A DNA stretch of 32,000 nucleotides from Haloferax volcanii DS2 (GCF_000025685.1 NC_013967.1:1860001-1892000); one strand, 5' to 3'; counted from the stretch's first letter, positions 7,278-31,897 are shown. Notes: a model not told the origin generated them from the letters alone. A program made the numbers and translations.

Positions 7278-7883
7278 CTACTCGCCGTCGAACGGGTCGC
7301 GCTCGGGGAGTTCGTCGTCGAGGACGGCCGCCACGGCGTCGACGAACGGCTCGTGGGCCGACAGCGCCTCGCGGAGCGCCTCGTAGTAGGCGACGGTGTC
7401 GCCCGCGAGGAACTGCGAGTCGACCCGCCAGAGCGTCCGCCCGGTGCCGAACTCGCCGGTGGGGAGGTCGTCGCGTTCGTCGCGCGCCTCGTCGAGCGCC
7501 GCGACGAGTCGGCCGCGGAGCGCCGCGTACGGCGAGTCGCCCGAGAAGTCGGCGTCGCCGTGGATACCGTCTTCGAGGTGGAGTTCGAGCCGGAACTGCC
7601 CGCGCTGGAGGGCGCGCGGCGTCGGGTAATGCTCGAAGTGGAGGTCGTAGCCGCGGTCGCGGCCGCGGTCCCACGCCGCGGGCGTGACGCGACCCCACGG
7701 CTTGCCAGAGTCGAGGGCGTGCCACGCGTGGGTGCCCCCCGGGGGCGACGCGCGGAGATAGTCGGCCCACTCGTACTGGAGGACCTCACGAGCGAGCTTC
7801 GCTACGGCGTCGCGGGTCGCATCGACCTGTAGCTCGTAGTCGAAATAGAAACTCGTTTCGTCCGCGGTGTCCGGGCCGTTCAT
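7278..7883 (-). CDS. hypothetical protein
   Basis: 201 aa ATG ORF with acidic composition and high GC3. No motif recognised. Confidence 0.65.
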   Translation of the reverse strand: MNGPDTADETSFYFDYELQVDATRDAVAKLAREVLQYEWADYLRASPPGGTHAWHALDSGKPWGRVTPAAWDRGRDRGYDLHFEHYPTPRALQRGQFRLELHLEDGIHGDADFSGDSPYAALRGRLVAALDEARDERDDLPTGEFGTGRTLWRVDSQFLAGDTVAYYEALREALSAHEPFVDAVAAVLDDELPERDPFDGE

Positions 7884-7947
7884 ACCTCCCTGCTAGACGC
7901 CCACACGGATAAAGATTCGACACAGACCCTCGAGGGCCCGTGTTCGT

Positions 7948-8175
7948 TCAGTTCTCGCGCCGTACTCGGCGTCCGACCCCGAACAGGAGCGCCGCGATGG
8001 CGACGTTCGTCGTTCTCGACGTAGCCCCCGTGGCCGTCGCGAAGGCGGCGGTCACGTCCGGCGAGGCGGACGCGTTCGCCGCCGACTGGACGCTCGAATC
8101 GAGCGCGCTCGCGTCCGCCTCAGCCGCGACGCCCGCCGCACCGGTGGGGAGCGTCGCGGCCGTGAGATCTAACAC
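7948..8175 (-). CDS. possible small Ala/Thr-rich protein with C-terminal hydrophobic anchor plus basic tail (weak call)
   Basis: GTG start and high GC3. C-terminus NVAIAALLFGVGRRVRREN resembles a C-terminal membrane anchor or sorting signal. The start is uncertain. Confidence 0.3.
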   Translation of the reverse strand: MLDLTAATLPTGAAGVAAEADASALDSSVQSAANASASPDVTAAFATATGATSRTTNVAIAALLFGVGRRVRREN

Positions 8176-8834
8176 CAGTAAAAACGTTATAGTGTGTCTG
8201 AAAACCGGTCGTGGTGTCGCGTGCGAAAACGGAATTACTTAAATCTGATAATAACTCGGATACATTAGATATAGTAGACTATTCGAAGCGGTAGCCGGGG
8301 ACCAACTGAACCAGATGGTGCAGACGCCGGCGCTCGCCCGAAAGCCCCCAAGAGACGCCCGGCGTCGAGTGTAGGGTGTCGCGCCGTCGGCGGGCGGTCA
8401 ACGATGCTGGGCTTCGTTCTCAGAACCCCGTCACTCCGCCACTTGACCGTGGAGAGCCGCGAAGACGGACGGCGACGTTCCGTGATGGCCTCGGGAACGG
8501 CGGCGAGAGATGGAGGCTCTCGTAGGCCGTATCGGCCACCGCGAACTGTCCGTTCGAGCCGTGTTTCGTGTTGTTCGAGCCGCGTACCGTTCGCATCTCG
8601 TGGGTCCGGGCGGCACGCGGCCGTCTGTCGAACGTACTGGCTGGTCCGGCCGGACGTGTCTCCCGGGCGCGCTCACTGACATCGGTGAGCGCGTTTCCGG
8701 CCGAGTTGCGGCGGACACCACGGCCGAATACGCAGTAAATACACTATTTCAATCATACTTTGAAATCAAAGATGTTCCGTCGTCGCTCCCGGTGGGGCGG
8801 CGTCTCTCGTCGCGCCGATGCTCCTCCGGCCGAG

Positions 8835-10061
8835 TCACTCGGCGTTCTCATCGAGCGCGGCGCACACTCGGGTTCGAACGTCGGCGGGACTCGCCGCCGA
8901 CGCGTCGCGCCGGGCCATCCGTCCGGTGACGAGGTCGAGGAGGTCGAGCGCGGTCAGCGCCTCACGGACCTCGGCGCGGTCGAGTCCGAGGCGACGCTCG
9001 ACTTCGTACAGCGTCTTCGCGCCCGCGACTGCCGCACACACGTCCGCCGTCGAGCAGTCGAGCGAGGACAGCGACGCGGGAAGCGACGGGAGGTCGGTCG
9101 CGGTCGGCGACTCCTCGGTCGTCCCGCTCGTCTCGTCGGCGTCGAGCGCGACCGACTCGGCGTCCGCGTCGGCGTCCGGGGCCGCGTTCGATTCCGGTTT
9201 GGGAGACGGTTCGGGAGCCGGTTCGGACTCGGTCGCGTCCTCCGCGTCGGCAACGCTCGGCTCCGAGTTCCGCACTTCGTCGTCGCCGTCGCTCGTTCCG
9301 CCCGAAGACGCCGGTTCGGACGACGGGCCGTAGCTATCCGGCTCGTGAATCCCGCGTTGAATCATCTGGTTGCGGACGGTCTGTGGGGTCACGTCGACGC
9401 CGAGGGCGTCGGTCATCTCCTTGAACGTCTCGCAGGTCTCGTAGGCCTCCCGAAGCCGAACCGGGTCGTGATGGGCCGGTACCGTCTCGGGTTCAGTCTT
9501 CGCGTCTGCGTCCGCGCCCGTCGCTGTCTTTCGGCTGGCGTCCGCGTCCGCCCCCGCGGCCGCCTCGCCGGCGTCGTCGGCCGATTCCGCTGCGGCCCGG
9601 TCGCGCTCCGGCGCTCCGTCTTTCACCGTCGGGACCGCGGACTCCATCGTCGGCGGCGACGCGCCGGGGGTGACGGGTGGGTCGACCGACGAGTTGCGCG
9701 TCCCGGACCCGTCGGTTCGGGCGACCGGCGACGCAGTCGGTTCGGGGTCGTCCTCGCCGGCGCGTCCGGACGACATCGGTTCCGGTTCGGCGGCTCCGCT
9801 CTCCGGGGGCGCGAGCGTCACGTCGAGTTCGAGTCGAAGCAGGCCGTCGGTAACCGCCGCCGCGGGTGACGACACGCGGAGTCGGTTCGGGTCCACCGCG
9901 CACTCGGATGCGAGGTCGTACTCGACGGTGGCGGAAGCCGAGACACTCGCCGCGGTCGAATCGCCTCCGCTCGCCAGTTCGACCCCGATAACCGCGCCCG
10001 TCATCTCCGTCAACTGTTCGAGAACCGCCGTGAGTTCTCGGACGTTTCTGACCACTTCCAT
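8835..10061 (-). CDS. acidic hypothetical protein with two HTH-like segments
   Basis: 408 aa. Long D/E/A/S/P low-complexity linkers. The segments FKEMTDALGVDVTPQTVRNQMIQRG and LYEVERRLGLDRAEVREALTALD look like helix-turn-helix. Confidence 0.65.
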   Translation of the reverse strand: MEVVRNVRELTAVLEQLTEMTGAVIGVELASGGDSTAASVSASATVEYDLASECAVDPNRLRVSSPAAAVTDGLLRLELDVTLAPPESGAAEPEPMSSGRAGEDDPEPTASPVARTDGSGTRNSSVDPPVTPGASPPTMESAVPTVKDGAPERDRAAAESADDAGEAAAGADADASRKTATGADADAKTEPETVPAHHDPVRLREAYETCETFKEMTDALGVDVTPQTVRNQMIQRGIHEPDSYGPSSEPASSGGTSDGDDEVRNSEPSVADAEDATESEPAPEPSPKPESNAAPDADADAESVALDADETSGTTEESPTATDLPSLPASLSSLDCSTADVCAAVAGAKTLYEVERRLGLDRAEVREALTALDLLDLVTGRMARRDASAASPADVRTRVCAALDENAE

Positions 10062-11716: not shown

Positions 11717-12112
11717 TTATTCGTCCGAAGCGCGCTTGAAGAACGCCAGCGCCGCGCCGAACAGCGTCAGGTTCTGGAGGAACGACGTGAGCTCCTCGTC
11801 GCGGGCGTCGTCGTCGACGGCCCAGAAGTCGTGCATCGTCGGCGTGACGCCGGCGAAGAACGCCGCGATGCTCGCGGAGGCGAGTCGGGGAAGCTTCCAG
11901 AACCCGACGCCGAGGCTCCCGCCGAGAAGCAGGCCGGTCGCCGCGGGAACGAGTCGGTCCGCCTCGGGGACGCCTTTCGCCTCCGCGTAGGCGATGCGGC
12001 CGTCGAGGTCGGTCAGGTTGCGAATCGCCAGAATCGCGAGGCCGCTCGCGAAGAGGGCGCGGGCGAGCCGGGATGGCGTGCTGCGTTCGGATTCGTCGGT
12101 GTCTGTCATCAC
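11717..12112 (-). CDS. DoxX-family membrane protein
   Basis: 131 aa with 3-4 TM helices. The pattern AFFAGVTPTMHDFW...FLQNLTLFGAALAF fits DoxX. Confidence 0.6.
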   Translation of the reverse strand: MMTDTDESERSTPSRLARALFASGLAILAIRNLTDLDGRIAYAEAKGVPEADRLVPAATGLLLGGSLGVGFWKLPRLASASIAAFFAGVTPTMHDFWAVDDDARDEELTSFLQNLTLFGAALAFFKRASDE

Positions 12113-12298
12113 CGTTTGAAAGCGGATTGCTAATTATAAGCGCTCTGGTTACAGACCGCCCGGTACGCTTTTCATCGTTCTGCGCTCCGTCCGCCGACTT
12201 CGGCCGCTCTCGCGTCGCGGACTCCGCGGGCGCGCACTGCTGCGTCGGCTTCGCCCGGCACCACCATTATGTTCTCTTGGCGTCATCTACCACCGCGT

Positions 12299-25449: not shown

Positions 25450-26370
25450 ATGGACGGCAAACGAGTCCTCGTTACTGGCGGTGCCGGATTCATCGGCTCG
25501 AATCTCGCGAACCATCTCGCCGAAGACAACGACGTGATTGCGATTGACGACCTCTATCTCGGAACGCCCGAGAATCTGGATGACGCCGTGGAGTTCCACG
25601 ACACGACGGTCCTCGACGACGACCTCCCGACCGAGGGCGTCGACGTGGTATTCCACCTGGCGGCGCTGTCGTCGTACAAGATGCACGAGGAGAACCCGAC
25701 GAAGGGTGCCCGCGTCAACATCGAAGGCTTCGTCAACACGGTCGAACAGGCTCGCAAGGACGGCTGCGATACCGTGGTGTACGCGACGACATCGTCGATT
25801 TACGGGTCGCGAACCGAGCCCTCGCCCGAGGATATGCCCGTCGAGTCCCGGACGGGCTACGAGGCGTCGAAACTGGGCCGCGAGCGCTACGCGGAGTACT
25901 TCCACCACCACTACGATATGCAGTTGGCCGGGATGCGCTTTTTCTCGGTGTACCAGGGCTTCGGCGGCGCGGAAGAACACAAAGGGGAGTTCGCGAATAC
26001 GGTCGCGCAGTTCACCGACAAAATCGCGAACGGCGAGTCGCCGGAGCTGTTCGGCGACGGCACTCAGACCCGCGATTTCACCCACGTCGACGATATCGTC
26101 CGCGGGCTGGAGCTCGCGGCTGACGAGCGGTTGCAGGGTATCTACAACTTGGGGACCGGCGAGAGCTACTCGTTCAACGAGATGGTCGAGATGATAAACG
26201 AGGTGCTCGGGACGGACGTCGGCCCCGTGTACGTCGAAAACCCCTTCGAGGTGTACGTCCACGACACGAAAGCCGACTACTCGAAGATACACGACGCGAC
26301 CGGGTGGGAGCCCCAGGTGTCGTTCGAAGCGGGTGTCGAACGAGTCTGTCAGCCGTATCTCGACGGCTAA
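25450..26370 (+). CDS. NAD-dependent sugar epimerase/dehydratase (UDP-glucose 4-epimerase-like SDR)
   Basis: Rossmann motif VLVTGGAGFIGSNL and catalytic YEASK (YxxxK). 306 aa. Confidence 0.9.
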   Translation: MDGKRVLVTGGAGFIGSNLANHLAEDNDVIAIDDLYLGTPENLDDAVEFHDTTVLDDDLPTEGVDVVFHLAALSSYKMHEENPTKGARVNIEGFVNTVEQARKDGCDTVVYATTSSIYGSRTEPSPEDMPVESRTGYEASKLGRERYAEYFHHHYDMQLAGMRFFSVYQGFGGAEEHKGEFANTVAQFTDKIANGESPELFGDGTQTRDFTHVDDIVRGLELAADERLQGIYNLGTGESYSFNEMVEMINEVLGTDVGPVYVENPFEVYVHDTKADYSKIHDATGWEPQVSFEAGVERVCQPYLDG

Positions 26371-26683: not shown

Positions 26684-27007
26684 ATGGGTCGAACGGTTTC
26701 ACTCTCCGGGACGTGGTTCAGCTATCTGCTGTACGCGTTCCAACTGACTGCGCTCGCGTTGGTGCTCGTGTTCGTCGTGCCCGCGCTCCAGTACCCGGTC
26801 AATCTCTTCTTGGGCGGACTGTTCGCCGCGGTCGTCTTCGCGTCGGGAGTCGCGCTGTGGCGGCGCGCGACCGGACGGGAGGAAGGAAGTCGGCTCGGAA
26901 CCGCCGAAGACATCACCTACGACCCGTTTGCGGACCCCGGGCAGGCCGCCCGCGACCGGTGGGAACGGGCCGTTCGACGGCTTCCCGGTTCGGACGACGA
27001 GGAGTGA
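26684..27007 (+). CDS. hypothetical two-helix membrane protein
   Basis: MGRTVSLSGTWFSYLLYAFQLTALALVLVFVV... with an acidic C-terminus. ATG 26684 preferred over the TTG at 26654. Confidence 0.55.
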   Translation: MGRTVSLSGTWFSYLLYAFQLTALALVLVFVVPALQYPVNLFLGGLFAAVVFASGVALWRRATGREEGSRLGTAEDITYDPFADPGQAARDRWERAVRRLPGSDDEE

Positions 27008-27141
27008 ACTCCCGAAGGTGTGAGGGCGGTCGGTGGCTCACGAACGACCTCCTCCGTCGGTCTGCCGCCTCCACCGAGTGATACGAACGAACTGCTCCAT
27101 CGTTCCCGCAGCCAGAGCACCGACGACCGAGCGAATCCGCT

Positions 27142-27286
27142 GTTCGACGGCGACGACTCGAATCCGGTCGCGCTCGACGACGCGGTCACACCGATGCGAC
27201 GGACACAATCACTAACTCAATTGACGTTGGATACTGTTAGCTGTGTTCCCAATCTCACACCTGTGGTCCGGCGTGTCCCTCCAAAC
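27142..27286 (+). repeat. left copy of imperfect direct repeat flanking the orc1 module
   Basis: Shares three blocks with 30079-30197: the 11-mer GTTCGACGGCG, a 38-nt block (27181-27217, 32 of 38 identical including ACGGACACAATCA and CTAACT), and a 19-nt block GTGGTCYGGCGTGTCSCTC (27263-27281, 17 of 19). Inter-block spacing is 45 nt here versus 44 nt on the right. Confidence 0.7.
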
Positions 27287-27467
27287 ACCCCCCTTTCCCG
27301 TCGGCGTGCGCGAAACGCACGTGACCGGGCTCGTGGTGCTCATCGGACTCATCTTCGGCGGGATGTATCTGTACACTCGCTGGCGTCAGTATCTTCGGTA
27401 GACACAGCGACGGACCGCGTTGCACCCTCCCGACGAACAATACCACCGTCGAACTGACGGCCGAGTC

Positions 27468-27596
27468 AGAGAGTACAGTTCGTACGCTCTCCTCTCTGCT
27501 GCCTCGCGCTTTCAACGACGAACGAACGCAGGCGAACTGTACTCTCTCCCGTCCCGCTTCGGCCATCGCGTTCCACGTTAGAGAGTACATTTCGTA
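27468..27596. repeat. 15-bp perfect inverted repeat AGAGAGTACAGTTCG / CGAACTGTACTCTCT plus a third direct copy
   Basis: Arms at 27468-27482 and 27533-27547 (50-nt spacer). Third copy AGAGAGTACATTTCG at 27580-27594 (1 mismatch). Each direct copy continues with TAYGCTYTCCTC. Confidence 0.7.
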
Positions 27597-27606
27597 TGCT
27601 TTCCTC

Positions 27607-27639
27607 AATATGAAGCGTTCTACGAGGGGGTGGGTGTGG
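27607..27639 (+). repeat. degenerate ORB-like element
   Basis: AATATGAAGCG, then a 6-nt insertion, then the G-string GAGGGGGTGGGTGTGG. Confidence 0.4.
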
Positions 27640-27800
27640 AGTTTTGAATGTATCGCGTTGTACAGGTCACCGCAGATGCGATGACGACATGACGGTTCCT
27701 CGGGGAGTACCGTTTCGAGTGTATCTGATCTCGTGTCCTTCGCATCGGCCTCGGAGTCTCTGTTTCCGATTTCGTGTGTACCACTTCCTGAGACGCATCT

Positions 27801-27823
27801 AAACAGATGAAGTCGTGGGGGTC
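27801..27823 (+). repeat. ORB element
   Basis: AAACAGATGAAGTCGTGGGGGTC. Confidence 0.8.
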
Positions 27824-27915
27824 AGATTTTCGTCCCGGATTCTCAGAACGATTTCTTTGCAGTCTATTTCCTTCGTCTCCGGTATACGAACTGGTTCAGT
27901 TTACAGTTTGGTTGT

Positions 27916-27939
27916 CACCCCCCATCGCTTCATGTGTTC
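27916..27939 (-). repeat. ORB element (inverted)
   Basis: The reverse complement reads GAACACATGAAGCGATGGGGGGTG. Confidence 0.8.
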
Positions 27940-28046
27940 TTGTGGTTCGTCTCTATCCACAGCAGCGCTGCACTACCACCGGTATCTCCGTCTCGAACTG
28001 GCTTCGACTCGAAGATATTGGCATCTTGAACCCCTGTATGGGTGCT

Positions 28047-28068
28047 AAACACATGAAGTGGTGGGGGT
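28047..28068 (+). repeat. ORB element
   Basis: AAACACATGAAGTGGTGGGGGT. Confidence 0.8.
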
Positions 28069-28130
28069 AGAACGATTACCAAATCCTCTCGGCTACCTGA
28101 ACAGCCATGACCAACAATGTTGGAGACTCT

Positions 28131-28154
28131 CCCACCCCACCACTTCATCTGTTC
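28131..28154 (-). repeat. ORB element (inverted)
   Basis: The reverse complement reads GAACAGATGAAGTGGTGGGGTGGG. Confidence 0.8.
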
Positions 28155-28255
28155 TGATTATCTGCACTGTTTCTGTGTGGTTTGGGGGCTCAATAGTTCG
28201 GGTGGTCGCTGGCTCTTAACCATCATTGTCAGTCGTAGACAGATCACACAGCATA

Positions 28256-28276
28256 GAACAGATGAAGCCACGGGGT
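28256..28276 (+). repeat. ORB element
   Basis: GAACAGATGAAGCCACGGGGT. Confidence 0.7.
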
Positions 28277-28295
28277 TCTTCACTTATATATTCGG

Positions 28296-28323
28296 AGAAC
28301 AGATGAAACAGATGAACCGGTGG
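28296..28323 (+). repeat. tandem ORB half-sites without G-string
   Basis: AGAACAGATGAA-ACAGATGAA-CCGGTGG, just upstream of the orc1 promoter. Confidence 0.55.
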
Positions 28324-28353
28324 ATATATCTGGTATACAGGTCTGCAACACGT

Positions 28354-29583
28354 ATGGGATCCTTCGAGTTCTCACAATCAAATCAGATCTTCAAAAATCG
28401 GGATGTGCTACGTGAGGATTATACCCCCGAAGAACTCGTTGGCCGGGATGAAGAACTGAGTGAGTATCACTCCGCTCTCCAGCCGGTAATCAACAACGAA
28501 CTCCCGTCGAACATCTTTCTGTACGGCAAGTCCGGTGTCGGGAAAACAGCCGCAACACGATTCTTACTGGATCGGCTCCAAGACGCCGCTCGATCGATTC
28601 ACGACCTCGACTTGCACGCGGTACGGATCAACTGTGACGGACTCAACACGAGCTATCAAGTCGCCGTAACGATCATTAACCGTCTGCGTAGTCCGGAAGA
28701 TCAGATTCCCATGACCGGCTATCCACAGTCGAAGGTGTACCAGTTCCTGTGGGAAGAACTCGATCAGTACGGGACCATACTCATCATCCTCGACGAGGTC
28801 GACCACGTCAACGACGACTCACTTCTGTATCAGATTCCGCGCGCACGAGACAACGGTTACGTCACGTCAGCGAAGATCGGGCTGATCGGTATTTCGAACG
28901 ATCTGTCGTACCGAGAAGGGCTTTCGGCAAAGGTCCAATCGAGTCTGTGCGAAAAAGAGGTCTATTTCCCACCGTACGATGCGGGAGAACTCCGTAAAGT
29001 GCTCGAACAACGAACCCAAGTCGCCTTCCGTGATGACGCTCTCTCGGAGGACGTCATCCCGCTTTGTGCCGCCTATGGTGCGAAGGATTCGGGTGACGCT
29101 CGACAGGCGATTAATCTCCTGTTGGAGGCGGGGGATATCGCACGGAACGAGAACGCACCACAGGTAACGAAACCGCACGTCGACCAAGCCAAACGAAAGC
29201 TCGAATCCGACCAAATCACGACTGGGGTGTCGAAGCTCACAGAGCACGCCCGACTGACGCTGTACGCACTTACGACGTTCGCCGCAGACGGTGAGACTCC
29301 AGTCACTTCACCGACAATCCGCGAACGCTACCTCGCACTCTGCAGTTCGAGTGGCATCGACCCGCTTTCACATCGGCAGATGCAAAGTCATCTCTCCGAG
29401 CTGAAGATGATGGGTGTCATTACGGGCAAAGAGCGGAATCTGGGTCGTCGCGGCGGAAAGAAGGTGCTGTACGGACTCAACTACGACCTCGGGTTAATTA
29501 CGGAAACCCTCGCCGACACGATCGATGAAATCGGCGTCCACCGCTCGATTCAATCGTTCGCCAAGAACTGCTCGGAGCAGTAA
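28354..29583 (+). CDS. orc1: Orc1/Cdc6 replication initiator
   Basis: LVGRDEEL, Walker A GKSGVGKTA, Walker B ILDEVD, sensor and arginine-finger region, and a C-terminal winged helix. Start set at ATG 28354 (MGSFEFSQSNQIF...), about 25 nt after GATATATC. The track ORF start at 28117 would read through ORB repeats. GC is visibly lower than in the core genes. Confidence 0.9.
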   Translation: MGSFEFSQSNQIFKNRDVLREDYTPEELVGRDEELSEYHSALQPVINNELPSNIFLYGKSGVGKTAATRFLLDRLQDAARSIHDLDLHAVRINCDGLNTSYQVAVTIINRLRSPEDQIPMTGYPQSKVYQFLWEELDQYGTILIILDEVDHVNDDSLLYQIPRARDNGYVTSAKIGLIGISNDLSYREGLSAKVQSSLCEKEVYFPPYDAGELRKVLEQRTQVAFRDDALSEDVIPLCAAYGAKDSGDARQAINLLLEAGDIARNENAPQVTKPHVDQAKRKLESDQITTGVSKLTEHARLTLYALTTFAADGETPVTSPTIRERYLALCSSSGIDPLSHRQMQSHLSELKMMGVITGKERNLGRRGGKKVLYGLNYDLGLITETLADTIDEIGVHRSIQSFAKNCSEQ

Positions 29584-29588
29584 CCCAC

Positions 29589-29618
29589 AGAACAGATGAA
29601 GTGACGGGGTGTGGGTGG
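29589..29618 (+). repeat. ORB element
   Basis: AGAACAGATGAAGTGACGGGGTGTGGGTGG, 6 nt after the orc1 stop codon. Confidence 0.75.
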
Positions 29619-29644
29619 TCATGGCTCCGTTCTGTCTCTCGAAA

Positions 29645-29665
29645 AAAACAGATGAAGTGGTGGCG
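29645..29665 (+). repeat. ORB element with interrupted G-string
   Basis: AAAACAGATGAAGTGGTGGCG. Confidence 0.65.
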
Positions 29666-29710
29666 TGCCCCGGTCCTCAACTGCCGTCTCACGCGACGTC
29701 TGCCTTCCTA

Positions 29711-29808
29711 CCCGAAACCGGTGTTTGGTCGTCTCGTCTCGCGCCGCGAGGGTTGCGTGCAGACCGTCAGGACCCAGTCCCGAAACCGGTGTCTGTTCGG
29801 CTCGTCTG
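29711..29808 (+). repeat. pair of ~29-nt direct repeats
   Basis: CCCGAAACCGGTGTTTGGTCGTCTCGTCT (29711-29739) versus CCCGAAACCGGTGTCTGTTCGGCTCGTCT (29779-29807). 26 of 29 positions are identical. Confidence 0.7.
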
Positions 29809-30021
29809 CTTCTGCGATCGACGCCTGGCTCCCATAGCCCCCGAATGCGGTGTCCACACGGATGTTTCTGACTCGGAAGCACGCGAAATGCCCACTCTGT
29901 ATCAGATCGTCTCAGTCTCTCAGTGGATCCTATCTGCTGCTGAAAGACAGTACATCTTGTGTGCCTTTCCCGACTGCATTGGCTTCGATTGGTCGACGAG
30001 TCACCCCATGCCGATATCGAA

Positions 30022-30048
30022 AGAACAGATGAAGTCATGGGGGGAGGG
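30022..30048 (+). repeat. ORB element
   Basis: AGAACAGATGAAGTCATGGGGGGAGGG. Confidence 0.8.
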
Positions 30049-30078
30049 AGGACCGGATCGGACCGTTCTGTGTGGCTC

Positions 30079-30197
30079 GTTCGACGGCGCGGTTACGGTG
30101 ATACGACGGACACAATCAACTAACTACATCGATGCTCGCACCGCTATTCGCGTCTCGCACTCTCCCCCCGTGGTCTGGCGTGTCGCTCGGTCCCCAA
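30079..30197 (+). repeat. right copy of imperfect direct repeat flanking the orc1 module
   Basis: 11-mer at 30079-30089, 38-nt block at 30088-30125 and 19-nt block at 30170-30188, matching 27142-27286 in the same order and orientation. Ends 7 nt before the glycosyltransferase stop codon. Confidence 0.7.
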
Positions 30198-30203
30198 CGA
30201 ACA

Positions 30204-30875
30204 TCACCACCGACCGTCGATAGCGCGCTCGTACGCCTTCTCCGCTTGGTCGGCGACGCTGTCCCAATCGTACCGCTCGGCGCGTTTCGTCGGTTCGGTC
30301 GGCGGCGTCTCGCCCCCGAGCGCTCGGGCTAACGACTCTGCGACCGAATCGACAGTCGGCTCAGCGAGATAGCCCGCGTCACCGATGACCTCACTCGCCG
30401 CCGATTCGGGGTGTTGAACGCCGATAACCGTACAGTCGGCGGCCATCGCCTCGGCGTAGGTGATGCCGAATCCCTCTCGTGTGCTCGGAGAGGCGAACAC
30501 GTCCGCGGCGCGCATCTGGCCCAACACGTCCTCGTACTCGTCGAGGAATCCAAGCAGGCTCACGCGGTCGGCGTGGTCCAACGAGTCGGCCTGTCGTTCG
30601 AGGCGGTCGGCCTCCGGGCCGTCGCCGACGACGCCCAGCGTCACGTCGTCGTAGTCGTCGGCCACGCGGTCGAACGCGTCGAGGAGGACGGAGACGTTCT
30701 TGTCGGCGATGAGTCGCCCGGCGAACAGCACGTCGAACGAGTCGCCCTCGTCGGGGAGCGGCGCGTTGCGAATCTGGTCGACGTCGATGCCGTTCGGGAC
30801 GACCTCGATCGTGTCCCTGTCCCGGCCGGTATCGGCGAGGCGGTCGGTGTTTTTGTGAACTCGCGGTGTTTCCAC
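30204..30875 (-). pseudogene. GT4-type glycosyltransferase, C-terminal (Glycos_transf_1) half only
   Basis: VVPNGIDVDQI...FDVLFAGRLIADKNV...LGVVGDGPE...FASPSTREGFGITYAEAMA covers the C-terminal Rossmann domain including the EX7E-type region. The ~150-170 aa N-terminal domain is absent. The frame closes at a stop 30 nt upstream of the GTG at 30875. Confidence 0.6.
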
Positions 30876-30934: not shown

Positions 30935-31897
30935 TCATCCGTCTTTCACGGGGACGGGGAATTTGTAGTCGTACGCCATGAGCGTATTCGAGCGTCGGAG
31001 GTCGTCGAGGAACGTTCGTGCATCGTAGTCACGAAGACGAATATACAGACCCGAGCCGTCTTCGATGCCCTTCTGTCTGACTGCGTAGTTGTCGTAGCCC
31101 AGTCGGTCGACCTCTGACTGGAGATGTTCGACGCACGACTCGGGAAAGCCGTGGGTCGCAAAGGAAACGCGCGGTGCGCCGCTGTCACGGATTGAGCAGT
31201 TCCCGTCGCCCCAGTACCAATGTAGGAGTGCTGTCTTGTCGAGGTGGAAGTCCTCCGGGACGATTTTTCGATTGTTCTTTTCGTCCCTGACTTCGTACCA
31301 CTCCTCGTACATTCGTTGGAGACGTGGTTGCGGTCGTGACGTGACTATCCACGAAGTGTAGTCTTCGTCGGTAAACTGATTCAGCCGAGTGAACGAGTTC
31401 GGCTGGGACTCCGGGAAGAACCCATCGGGAAGCTTTGTGATTAGTCGACGTGCGTGCTCCTCCGTCGTCGTCGAGAGTTGGAAGAAACACGACCCATCAT
31501 ACCGTGAGTGCAAGCACCCATCGCCGAGTAGTTCGCCTTGAATAACCGACACCTGGGATGGACTCAGTCCGATATCAGTAGTTTTCGGGAGTGAGATGGG
31601 ATCGGCACCCGCTTTTTCAAGGTGGAATCGGATTGCGACTGGGGAGGTGTCGTATCGGTCCGCAAGCGTCTGGAGGGAACTCCGACGCTCGTACGCTTCA
31701 ACCAGTTCCTCTCTTCGGTTCGCTAACTGCGTGTACGCCGGACCACCATTTCGCATTGTGACATCGTGGTCCTGTAGACGGCGGTGAATCGTCGGTGCAG
31801 AGACATCGAAGACCTCCGCAATCTCACGGAGCGACTGTCCCGCTTCATAGCGCTCAATGAGTTCGTCAACTCGCTCGTCGAGCCACTCGTACCGCAT
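30935..31897 (-). CDS. LAGLIDADG-type homing-endonuclease-like protein with two N-terminal HTH modules
   Basis: 320 aa. Two sigma-70-region-4 / resolvase-like HTH repeats (GQSLREIAEVFDVSAPTIHRRL and SSLQTLADRYDTSPVAIRFHL). These are followed by IQGELLGDGCL and LLHWYWGDGNCS, which match the two LAGLIDADG motifs of a double-motif enzyme. GC is lower than in the core genes. Confidence 0.65.
   Translation of the reverse strand: MRYEWLDERVDELIERYEAGQSLREIAEVFDVSAPTIHRRLQDHDVTMRNGGPAYTQLANRREELVEAYERRSSLQTLADRYDTSPVAIRFHLEKAGADPISLPKTTDIGLSPSQVSVIQGELLGDGCLHSRYDGSCFFQLSTTTEEHARRLITKLPDGFFPESQPNSFTRLNQFTDEDYTSWIVTSRPQPRLQRMYEEWYEVRDEKNNRKIVPEDFHLDKTALLHWYWGDGNCSIRDSGAPRVSFATHGFPESCVEHLQSEVDRLGYDNYAVRQKGIEDGSGLYIRLRDYDARTFLDDLRRSNTLMAYDYKFPVPVKDG

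What the first reader, a model, noticed from the sequence alone, without database searches (positions are those of the whole stretch)
27142..30197. The whole ori-orc1 module is bracketed by ~110-150 bp imperfect direct repeats, as if it were an inserted cassette
Three sequence blocks recur in the same order, orientation and spacing on both sides of the ORB-orc1-ORB unit, 2907 bp apart. They are GTTCGACGGCG, a 38-nt block containing ACGGACACAATCA(A)CTAACT, and GTGGTCYGGCGTGTCSCTC. Everything between them is visibly lower in GC than the flanks. No integrase, transposase or Rep gene lies between the repeats. The repeats sit in the convergent intergenic space between a membrane-protein gene (stop 27007) and a glycosyltransferase gene (stop 30204). 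This looks like the footprint of integration, or of homologous capture, of a minimal replicon (origin plus initiator) into a surface-glycosylation locus. Haloarchaea are known to gain and lose orc1-adjacent origins, but a repeat-delimited origin cassette with no recombinase is not a described element type as far as I know. The low identity of the central ~44 nt (about half the positions match) means the event is old, or that the repeats are functional sites rather than att scars.
Basis: partly seen in the sequence, partly recalled or inferred. Interest (0 to 1): 0.78.

Follow-up and report, generated by a model that had tools for sequence, protein, structure and literature searches.

The report
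Decayed duplication flanking dormant orc4 origin
The two imperfect repeats around the silent orc4 replication origin of Haloferax volcanii are real. They are the worn-down ends of a longer duplicated stretch of origin-border DNA that related species carry in zero, one or two copies, so they mark recombination-driven gain and loss of an origin unit rather than a new kind of mobile cassette.

Summary
The window is Haloferax volcanii DS2 chromosome, about 1.860-1.892 Mb. The initiator gene is orc4 (HVO_2042), a known laterally acquired orc gene with no origin activity found at it so far.

The repeat is real: 27171-27281 matches 30078-30188, 2907 bp apart, 73% identical, z 20 against shuffles. The block at 27142 is 30 nt out of register.

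Relatives show these are remnants of a longer unit, "RX". RX comprises R, a conserved 26-codon small ORF and a motif cluster that begins the origin.
- H. denitrificans has two 472-bp copies (88% identical) around orc4.
- H. prahovense has one copy, on the other side of orc4.
- BAA-type strains also duplicate the last ORB.
- H. gibbonsii ARA6 has one copy and no orc4, between the same flanks.
- Two species have neither.
- A more distant Haloferax has orc4 at this locus with no repeat.

In relatives, a relic of the glycosyltransferase 3' end sits beside R.

The best reading is tandem duplication or homologous re-insertion of a ~3.2-kb ori-orc4 unit, later trimmed by deletions. The repeats are not att scars. 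There is no recombinase, the longest shared run is 15 nt, and R occurs nowhere else.

Interest is moderate.

The parts
26684..27007 (+). HVO_2041, a DUF8000 protein with two TM segments. It is the left neighbour and is not part of the repeat-flanked unit. In relatives a ~30-kb island follows it directly.
   Evidence: identity, Pfam, hydropathy. (island follows it in JCM 10717-type strains, H. lucentense and H. sulfurifontis).
27133..27170 (.). Probable decayed relic of the 3' end of the glycosyltransferase gene.
   Evidence: Well preserved in relatives immediately left of R: L061 and L068 against window 30211-30282, z 14-16; tblastn to GT residues 192-209. In DS2 it is recognisable only through the multiple alignment and is not significant alone (z 0.6).
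27171..27296 (+). Left repeat copy R (core 27171-27281). It has conserved 5' and 3' blocks and a fast-changing centre.
   Evidence: Profile hit at 27167-27296. Block-wise identities.
27321..27401 (+). Conserved 26-codon small ORF (VTGLVVLIGLIFGGMYLYTRWRQYLR): a hydrophobic helix with a basic tail. It belongs to the long form of the repeat (RX).
   Evidence: Intact in 9 of 10 distinct copies from 6 genome types. Ten variable codons are purely synonymous; eight carry amino-acid changes, mostly conservative.
27461..27606 (+). D7 motif cluster (GAGAGTACAKTTCGTAYGC at 27469-27487 and 27581-27599; inverted copy at 27533-27547). It forms the right end of RX and the left edge of the origin.
   Evidence: D7, I4, I25; the motif occurs only at orc4 loci, including L003, which has no R.
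27607..28353 (.). Upstream origin half (oriL). ORB/G-string elements lie at 27803(+), 27929(-), 28049(+), 28144(-), 28258(+), 28299(+) and 28308(+). This is the lowest-GC stretch.
   Evidence: ORBs. (GC 0.494).
28354..29583 (+). orc4 (HVO_2042), an Orc1/Cdc6 initiator of 409 aa.
   Evidence: Pfam AAA_22, Cdc6_lid and Cdc6_C. Exact match to ADE04836.1. Chromosome coordinates 1888354-1889583.
29584..30060 (.). Downstream origin half (oriR). ORBs lie at 29592, 29648 and 30025, all on the + strand. A 68-nt-period repeat lies at 29711-29739 and 29779-29807.
   Evidence: ORBs on both sides of orc4 were noted by Wu et al. 2012.
30061..30203 (+). Right repeat copy R' (core 30078-30188). It is the truncated, most diverged form and abuts the GT stop codon.
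   Evidence: Profile hit at 30060-30210. 67-71% identical to all other R copies.
30204..30875 (-). HVO_2043, the C-terminal half of a GT4 glycosyltransferase (223 aa; full length is 382 aa in relatives). It is the conserved right neighbour of the orc4 unit.
   Evidence: Pfam; profile positions 155-306 of 385. (382-aa versions). (gene name).

Best explanation
The two blocks are the decayed remains of a duplicated piece of origin-border DNA. They are not attachment sites, and they are not a family of initiator-binding sites.

The full duplicated piece, called RX here, is about 470 bp. It consists of a relic of the glycosyltransferase 3' end, then R, then a conserved 26-codon small ORF, then the D7 motif cluster that forms the left edge of the orc4 origin.

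Inferred history. In an ancestor of the volcanii/denitrificans/prahovense group, the ~3.2-kb unit [D7 - oriL - orc4 - oriR - RX] came to be present more than once in tandem. This happened either by unequal crossing-over between sister chromosomes (these cells are polyploid) or by Campbell-type homologous re-insertion of a circularised unit. Homologous deletions then trimmed the array differently in each lineage. DS2 kept one full RX on the left and one orc4 unit. On the right it kept only 110-140 nt of R, fused to the HVO_2043 stop codon.

Shown: the repeat itself; its longer forms; the 0/1/2-copy states; the circularly permuted arrangement; the duplicated terminal ORB; the GT relic.

Inferred: the order of events and the choice between tandem duplication and re-insertion. 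With only 15 nt of uninterrupted identity, the DS2 pair is probably now recombinationally inert. The H. denitrificans pair, with a 73-nt identical run, may still recombine.
For: - The repeat is real and colinear.
- H. denitrificans has direct repeats at 8535-9002 and 11770-12241, 472 nt at 87.7%, flanking orc4.
- H. prahovense has a single RX to the right of orc4. The epimerase gene abuts the origin, and an exact 24-nt D7 repeat lies at both ends of the unit.
- In L058-L060 the left copy is preceded by a 116-nt fragment of oriR, including a copy of the terminal ORB (7808 = 11596). The duplication therefore spans origin sequence.
- H. gibbonsii ARA6 has one RX and no orc4. Its left and right flanks are colinear with those of H. 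denitrificans.
- H. gibbonsii ATCC 33959 and H. marisrubri have neither RX nor orc4.
- L003 (Orc4 89% identical) has epimerase - D7 - ORBs - orc4 - ORBs - GT with no R.
- All of these arrangements are substrings of one periodic array.
- R was found nowhere else: not in 57 other fetched loci, plasmids, phages or IMG/VR.
- No recombinase lies inside the repeats.
Against: - R and R' differ by about 30%, while neighbouring X, oriL and orc4 differ by 1-13% between the same genomes. Either R evolves unusually fast or R' comes from a different lineage.
- No genome with two tandem orc4 copies was seen, and no circular form was seen.
- The GT 3' relic beside R resembles the displaced gene end left by site-specific integration.
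- Only about a dozen genome types were sampled. The states were not placed on a phylogeny.
Confidence: 0.58

Rival explanations
1. Site-specific or cassette integration. A small circular replicon (origin plus orc4) integrated into the 3' end of the glycosyltransferase gene. It carried a replacement gene end, and R and R' are the element-side arms or att scars. Successive integrations at this hotspot left several relics.
For: - A significant ~70-nt relic of the GT 3' end lies immediately left of R in L061 and L068. A displaced gene end of this kind is typical of integration into a gene's 3' end (established knowledge).
- A solo-copy site exists in H. gibbonsii ARA6.
- The module is low in GC.
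- oriL is about 94-96% identical in four of the six genome types compared (87% and 92% in the other two), while the flanking genes are 88-99% identical. This hints at exchange between lineages.
Against: - No integrase lies between the repeats or in the 10 kb seen on either side.
- The copies share no identical core; the longest run is 15 nt.
- The relic lies left of R while the intact gene end lies right of R'. One integration event therefore cannot give both repeat layers.
- L003 and H. prahovense carry orc4 at this locus without a flanking pair.
- The orc4-plus-upstream fragment has no ARS activity.
- The closest plasmid-borne Orc is only 64% identical.
Confidence: 0.15
2. R is kept by selection as a functional element, and the two copies are similar because both work. 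It could be the promoter or leader of the small ORF, an antisense regulator of it, or a protein-binding boundary of the origin.
For: - Across 10 distinct copies, the 5' block (GATRCGAYNGACACAAYC.CTAACT) and the 3' block (GTGGTCYGGCGTGTC.CTC) are nearly invariant. The 33-nt centre falls to 42-64% identity.
- The two conserved blocks are mutually complementary over 13 pairs.
- R lies directly upstream of a small ORF with a coding-like substitution pattern.
Against: - R' has no small ORF behind it.
- Folding energies are no better than shuffles (z 0.1 to 2.3).
- The covariation term is about zero.
- There is no Rfam match.
- R is absent from L003's otherwise similar origin and from other origins.
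- No clear archaeal TATA/BRE was seen by eye upstream of the small ORF. This is my reading of the sequence and was not tested with a tool.
Confidence: 0.15
3. Chance similarity of GC-rich intergenic DNA.
For: The 11-mer GTTCGACGGCG alone is a common word. It has a third copy at 7283 and is out of register.
Against: Alignment z is 20.5, with 0 of 1000 shuffles reaching the score. The same unit is conserved and longer in five other genome types.
Confidence: 0.01

Closest known systems
Predicted orc/cdc6-adjacent origins of haloarchaea with ORBs on both sides of the initiator gene (Wu et al. 2012, PMC3528665, which lists H. volcanii orc4)
   Same: An Orc1/Cdc6 gene with G-string ORB elements in both flanking intergenic regions, inside laterally acquired DNA.
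   Different: That work does not describe flanking direct repeats, the RX unit, or its 0/1/2-copy polymorphism. This origin gave no ARS activity and no replication-profile peak.
Alternative (low-salt) glycosylation island of Haloferax, with an adjacent orc1 gene, HVO_2043 GT and a free-standing LAGLIDADG gene (Shalev et al. 2018, PMC5867893)
   Same: The same locus, with the same proposal that the orc gene marks descent from a replicating plasmid-like element. It is low in GC and highly variable between strains.
   Different: That paper treats gene content only. The repeat structure, the solo-copy site and the permuted arrangements are not reported there.
Integration of the pHV4 replicon into the H. 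volcanii H26 chromosome by recombination between two ISH18 copies (Hawkins et al. 2013; recalled from my own knowledge, not checked here)
   Same: An ori-plus-orc replicon joined to the chromosome by homologous recombination between repeated sequences, with no dedicated integrase. It leaves direct repeats at both ends.
   Different: pHV4 is 636 kb and the repeats are identical IS elements. Here the unit is ~3 kb, the repeats are unique non-IS DNA, and they are 12-30% diverged.
att-flanked integrated plasmids and proviruses of haloarchaea (for example SNJ2-type tyrosine integrase elements, PMC5861418; title and abstract seen only)
   Same: A low-GC insert carrying a replication gene, bracketed by direct repeats, with a displaced 3' end of a target gene.
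   Different: There is no integrase. The repeats lack an identical core, and they include origin sequence.
Dormant origins such as oriC4-cdc6H of H. mediterranei (Yang et al. 2015, PMC4595724)
   Same: An ORB-flanked initiator gene that is silent in replication profiles.
   Different: oriC4 can be activated and has ARS activity. The orc4 fragment did not transform.

Membership tests
Archaeal Orc1/Cdc6-adjacent replication origin | Orc1/Cdc6 initiator gene next to the site | tested here: met
   Pfam Cdc6_lid, Cdc6_C and AAA_22, E 2e-25 to 1.6e-12.
Archaeal Orc1/Cdc6-adjacent replication origin | Multiple ORB elements (with the halophile G-string), some in inverted orientation, around an AT-rich stretch | tested here: met
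   Ten ORB cores, of which two upstream ones are inverted. GC is 0.44-0.49 at 28000-28400.
Archaeal Orc1/Cdc6-adjacent replication origin | Initiation activity (ARS or replication-profile peak) | not testable with these tools
   Published tests were negative for orc4 plus its upstream region. The locus is described as not next to an active origin.
Site-specifically integrated element (att-flanked) | Integrase or recombinase gene in or next to the element | tested here: not met
   None between the repeats. No integrase family appears among the genes called in the 10-kb flanks of relatives. The middle ~10 kb of the neighbouring 30-kb island was not seen.
Site-specifically integrated element (att-flanked) | Identical core sequence in both flanking repeats | tested here: not met
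   Longest exact run is 15 nt; overall identity is 73%.
Site-specifically integrated element (att-flanked) | Duplicated 3' end of the target gene | tested here: inconclusive
   A GT 3' relic beside R is significant in L061 and L068 and decayed in DS2. Its position does not fit a single integration event.
Site-specifically integrated element (att-flanked) | Empty site with one repeat copy in a relative | tested here: met
   H. gibbonsii ARA6 has one RX, no orc4 and colinear flanks. Deletion by homologous recombination predicts the same result.
Segmental/tandem duplication resolved by homologous deletion | Copies in the same orientation, colinear with neighbouring sequence, with different extents in different genomes | tested here: met
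   The repeat spans 110 nt in DS2, 472 nt in H. denitrificans, and ORB plus R in L058.
Segmental/tandem duplication resolved by homologous deletion | A genome that still carries two full units | tested here: not met
   No locus with two orc4 copies was found among those fetched. Sampling was limited.
Dispersed repeat (MITE/IS-like) | Many copies at unrelated sites, with terminal inverted repeats | tested here: not met
   The profile search finds R only beside orc4 or at its solo site. There were no plasmid, phage or viral matches.
Structured non-coding RNA | Stable fold with covariation, or an Rfam match | tested here: not met
   Fold z-scores of 0.07 to 2.33, none more stable than shuffles. 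Covariation term is about 0. No Rfam match.

The most novel reading that the evidence does not exclude
The ~3.2-kb unit (origin halves, orc4, RX with its small hydrophobic ORF) is a recombinase-free mobile origin cassette. It loops out and re-enters by homologous recombination between its own RX copies, and it spreads between Haloferax species during cell fusion. The small ORF would act as an addiction-type toxin. This would give the proposed haloarchaeal 'origin pool' a physical vehicle.
Probability: 0.1. Interest if true: 0.75.

Novelty: new member of a known kind. Interest (0 to 1): 0.38.

Why it matters
Haloarchaea gain and lose orc-linked origins, but the molecular steps are rarely visible. 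At this locus one genus preserves states with no copy, one copy, two copies and a permuted arrangement of the same origin unit and its border repeat. The turnover of an origin-initiator pair by ordinary homologous recombination can therefore be reconstructed. It can also be tested in a genetically tractable organism.

The finding also explains why the DS2 pair looks like functional sites: it is simply the most conserved core of a longer unit. In addition, it flags a conserved unannotated 26-codon ORF. It does not reveal a new kind of element.

Tried and rejected
- **GTDB pattern scan.** The scan of GTDB genomes for the R 5' block found nothing. The later protein scan did not return H. volcanii itself, so that genome is evidently not searchable there. 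H. denitrificans and H. prahovense differ at the pattern. The zero is uninformative.
- **Metagenome scan.** It gave three hits of GC 0.42-0.49 that match only the pattern. These are chance. IMG/VR gave none.
- **Plasmids and phages.** RX and the small-ORF peptide gave nothing (phages were searched with RX only). The 5.6-kb region matched only a GT gene on a Halogeometricum plasmid.
- **att-like duplication at the ends of the 30-kb island of JCM 10717-type strains.** Nothing longer than 10 nt was found.
- **R as a pseudogenised continuation of the GT coding region.** tblastn finds only the 13-18-residue relic. The nucleotide alignment stops at the relic.
- **Extension of the repeat into the last GT codons, and a partial GT relic left of R'.** Neither is significant (z 0.2 and 1.2). 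I dropped both.
- **R as structured RNA.** Rejected.
- **tRNA or Rfam features in the window.** None.
Full report
**Identity of the locus.** The Orc1/Cdc6 protein encoded at 28354-29583 is an exact match to Haloferax volcanii ADE04836.1. The small protein at 26684-27007 is HVO_2041, and the epimerase at 25450-26370 is D4GU54. Hartman et al. list HVO_2042 as orc4 at chromosome 1888354-1889583. The window is therefore DS2 chromosome about 1,860,001-1,892,000.

The literature already covers several points.
- orc4 lies in a genomic island. Ausiannikava et al. 2018, citing Hartman et al., describe it as acquired by horizontal transfer.
- ORBs lie on both sides of it.
- The gene plus its upstream region has no ARS activity in H. 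volcanii or H. mediterranei, and no initiation was detected there in replication profiles.
- It is freely deletable and is described as not next to an active origin.
- Most Haloferax isolates carry an orc1 gene, an HVO_2043-like glycosyltransferase and a free-standing LAGLIDADG gene beside the variable, 52% GC alternative glycosylation cluster. This arrangement was read as a sign of plasmid ancestry.

**The observation.** The repeat is real. Two seeds at identical spacing (2907 nt) extend to 27171-27281 and 30078-30188, 73% identical. The alignment score is 20 standard deviations above shuffles. The two longer blocks occur nowhere else in the window.

The first block, GTTCGACGGCG at 27142, is 30 nt out of register. 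It is a common word with a third copy at 7283. GC between the copies is 0.543, against 0.658 in the first 25 kb. The only recognisable gene inside is orc4.

**What relatives show.** I compared about a dozen related genome types, reached through exact-protein look-ups and one genome scan. I mapped window features onto each. I use these names:
- E, the epimerase gene
- R, 27171-27296
- X, 27297-27606, containing a small ORF and a cluster of D7 motifs
- oriL, orc4, oriR
- R', 30061-30203
- GT, HVO_2043

| Genome | Arrangement |
|---|---|
| DS2 | E - HVO_2041 - R-X - oriL - orc4 - oriR - R' - GT |
| JCM 10717-type strains | As DS2, with a ~30-kb island (primase-polymerase, VirB4/TraG-like ATPases) between HVO_2041 and R. 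Homology to DS2 stops at 27097 and resumes at 27171 by BLAST, or about 27133 in the multiple alignment. |
| H. denitrificans | RX - oriL - orc4 - oriR - RX - DUF5789 - YdjM - OB_2TM - GT. The two RX copies are 472 nt and 87.7% identical. |
| H. prahovense | E - one D7 - oriL - orc4 - oriR - RX - DUF5789 - GT. The single RX lies to the right of orc4, and an exact 24-nt D7 repeat bounds the unit. |
| L058-L060 | E - D7 cluster - a 116-nt oriR fragment with a copy of the terminal ORB - R - small ORF - D7 - ~1 kb - oriL - orc4 - oriR - R' - GT |
| L003 (Orc4 89% identical) | E - D7 motifs - ORBs - orc4 - ORBs - GT, compact, with no R |
| H. gibbonsii ARA6 | One RX and no orc4. Its flanks are colinear with the outer flanks of the H. 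denitrificans arrangement. |
| H. gibbonsii ATCC 33959, H. marisrubri | Neither RX nor orc4 |

**Interpretation.** The DS2 repeats are the best-conserved core of a longer duplicated unit. In other strains that unit includes origin sequence itself: the D7 cluster and the terminal ORB. Every arrangement above is a substring of one periodic array, ...D7 - oriL - orc4 - oriR - R - small ORF - D7 - oriL..., cut at different points.

The simplest history is as follows. The ~3.2-kb unit became tandemly repeated, either by unequal crossing-over or by homologous re-insertion of a looped-out circle. Homologous deletions then trimmed it. The ARA6 solo site is what either deletion between RX copies or the pre-insertion state would look like.

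It does not support att scars, for four reasons.
- No recombinase is present.
- The longest identical run in DS2 is 15 nt.
- L003 and H. prahovense carry orc4 at this locus without a flanking pair.
- HVO_2041 is followed in relatives by a separate island, which DS2 has probably lost.

**A second layer.** In L061 and ARA6, a ~70-nt relic of the GT 3' end lies immediately left of R. It corresponds to window 30211-30282 and GT residues 192-209. In DS2 the corresponding stretch, 27133-27170, is decayed.

This shows an older recombination event at the end of the GT gene. It keeps a site-specific or successive-integration scenario alive as a minority rival. However, the relic lies left of R while the intact gene end lies right of R', so one integration cannot explain both layers. 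Apparent extensions of the repeat into the last GT codons, and a partial relic left of R', were not significant. I dropped them.

**Is R functional?** Across ten distinct copies the 5' and 3' blocks are almost invariant, while the centre drops to 42-64% identity. The two blocks can pair over 13 positions. Against that:
- folding energies are no better than shuffles
- covariation is nil
- Rfam finds nothing
- R is absent from L003's origin

R is unusually variable. DS2 and JCM 10717 differ by 19% in R but only 4-5% in X and 0.4% in orc4. This remains unexplained. It is also why R and R' (about 30% apart) need not be ancient.

R was not found at any other fetched locus, in plasmids, phages or IMG/VR. 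The metagenome hits were chance.

**Verdict.** The locus is a known silent, laterally acquired orc gene at a known variable island. The new elements are the repeat architecture and its copy-number and permutation polymorphism, which document recombination-driven turnover of an origin unit. This is a new instance of a known kind of event and of moderate interest.

Noticed in passing
window 27321-27401 (+): Unannotated 26-codon ORF (VTGLVVLIGLIFGGMYLYTRWRQYLR): one hydrophobic helix plus a basic tail. It is intact in 9 of 10 distinct copies, including the 80%-diverged H. gibbonsii copy. Ten variable codons are purely synonymous. The size and shape recall small membrane toxins; this is speculation.
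   Followed up: partly
window 27469-27487, 27533-27547 (inverted), 27581-27599; also L003:9482-9500: The motif GAGAGTACAKTTCGTAYGC ('D7') clusters at the left edge of the orc4 origin in every strain, including the one without R. It occurs only at orc4 loci among 72 fetched loci. In H. prahovense and H. denitrificans a copy also lies just upstream of a DUF5789 gene. Its role is unknown.
   Followed up: partly
window 27222-27259 compared with L004:8899-8935: The centre of R is hypervariable. DS2 and JCM 10717 are 64% identical there, while the adjacent X is 95% and orc4 is 99.6% identical.
   Followed up: no
window 30204-30875 (-) and 30935-31897 (-): In DS2, HVO_2043 is only the C-terminal 223 aa of a 382-aa GT4 enzyme. 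Homology to the full-length JCM 10717 gene ends at 30847. A free-standing LAGLIDADG_2 plus HTH gene follows 60 nt away. JCM 10717 has the full GT next to a LAGLIDADG gene only 69% identical in DNA. H. gibbonsii ATCC 33959 keeps about 90 nt of the GT next to a 94%-identical LAGLIDADG gene.
   Followed up: partly
window 27098-27132; L009:10415 onward and L004 up to ~8805: A ~30-kb island lies between HVO_2041 and R in JCM 10717-type strains. In H. lucentense and H. sulfurifontis the same island follows HVO_2041; its far end was not fetched for those two. It encodes an NrS1-type primase-polymerase, a 1200-aa VirB4/TraG-like ATPase, MazEF, IS605 OrfB and a cyclase. DS2 has 35 unrelated nt in its place, probably after a deletion.
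   Followed up: partly
window 29711-29739 and 29779-29807: A 29-nt repeat (CCCGAAACCGGTGTYTG...) occurs at a 68-nt period in the downstream origin half. JCM 10717-type strains have one unit fewer.
   Followed up: no
window 27607-28353 compared with L004, L061, L064, L015: Non-coding oriL is about 94-96% identical to DS2 both in conspecific strains (left flank 98.9%) and in H. denitrificans (GT 88.7%). This hints that origin-unit alleles are exchanged across species boundaries.
   Followed up: no
L059:7838-8047: In one BAA-type assembly the left R copy is itself partly duplicated in tandem (7838-7948 and 7950-8047), with an N at the junction. This may be an assembly artefact.
   Followed up: no
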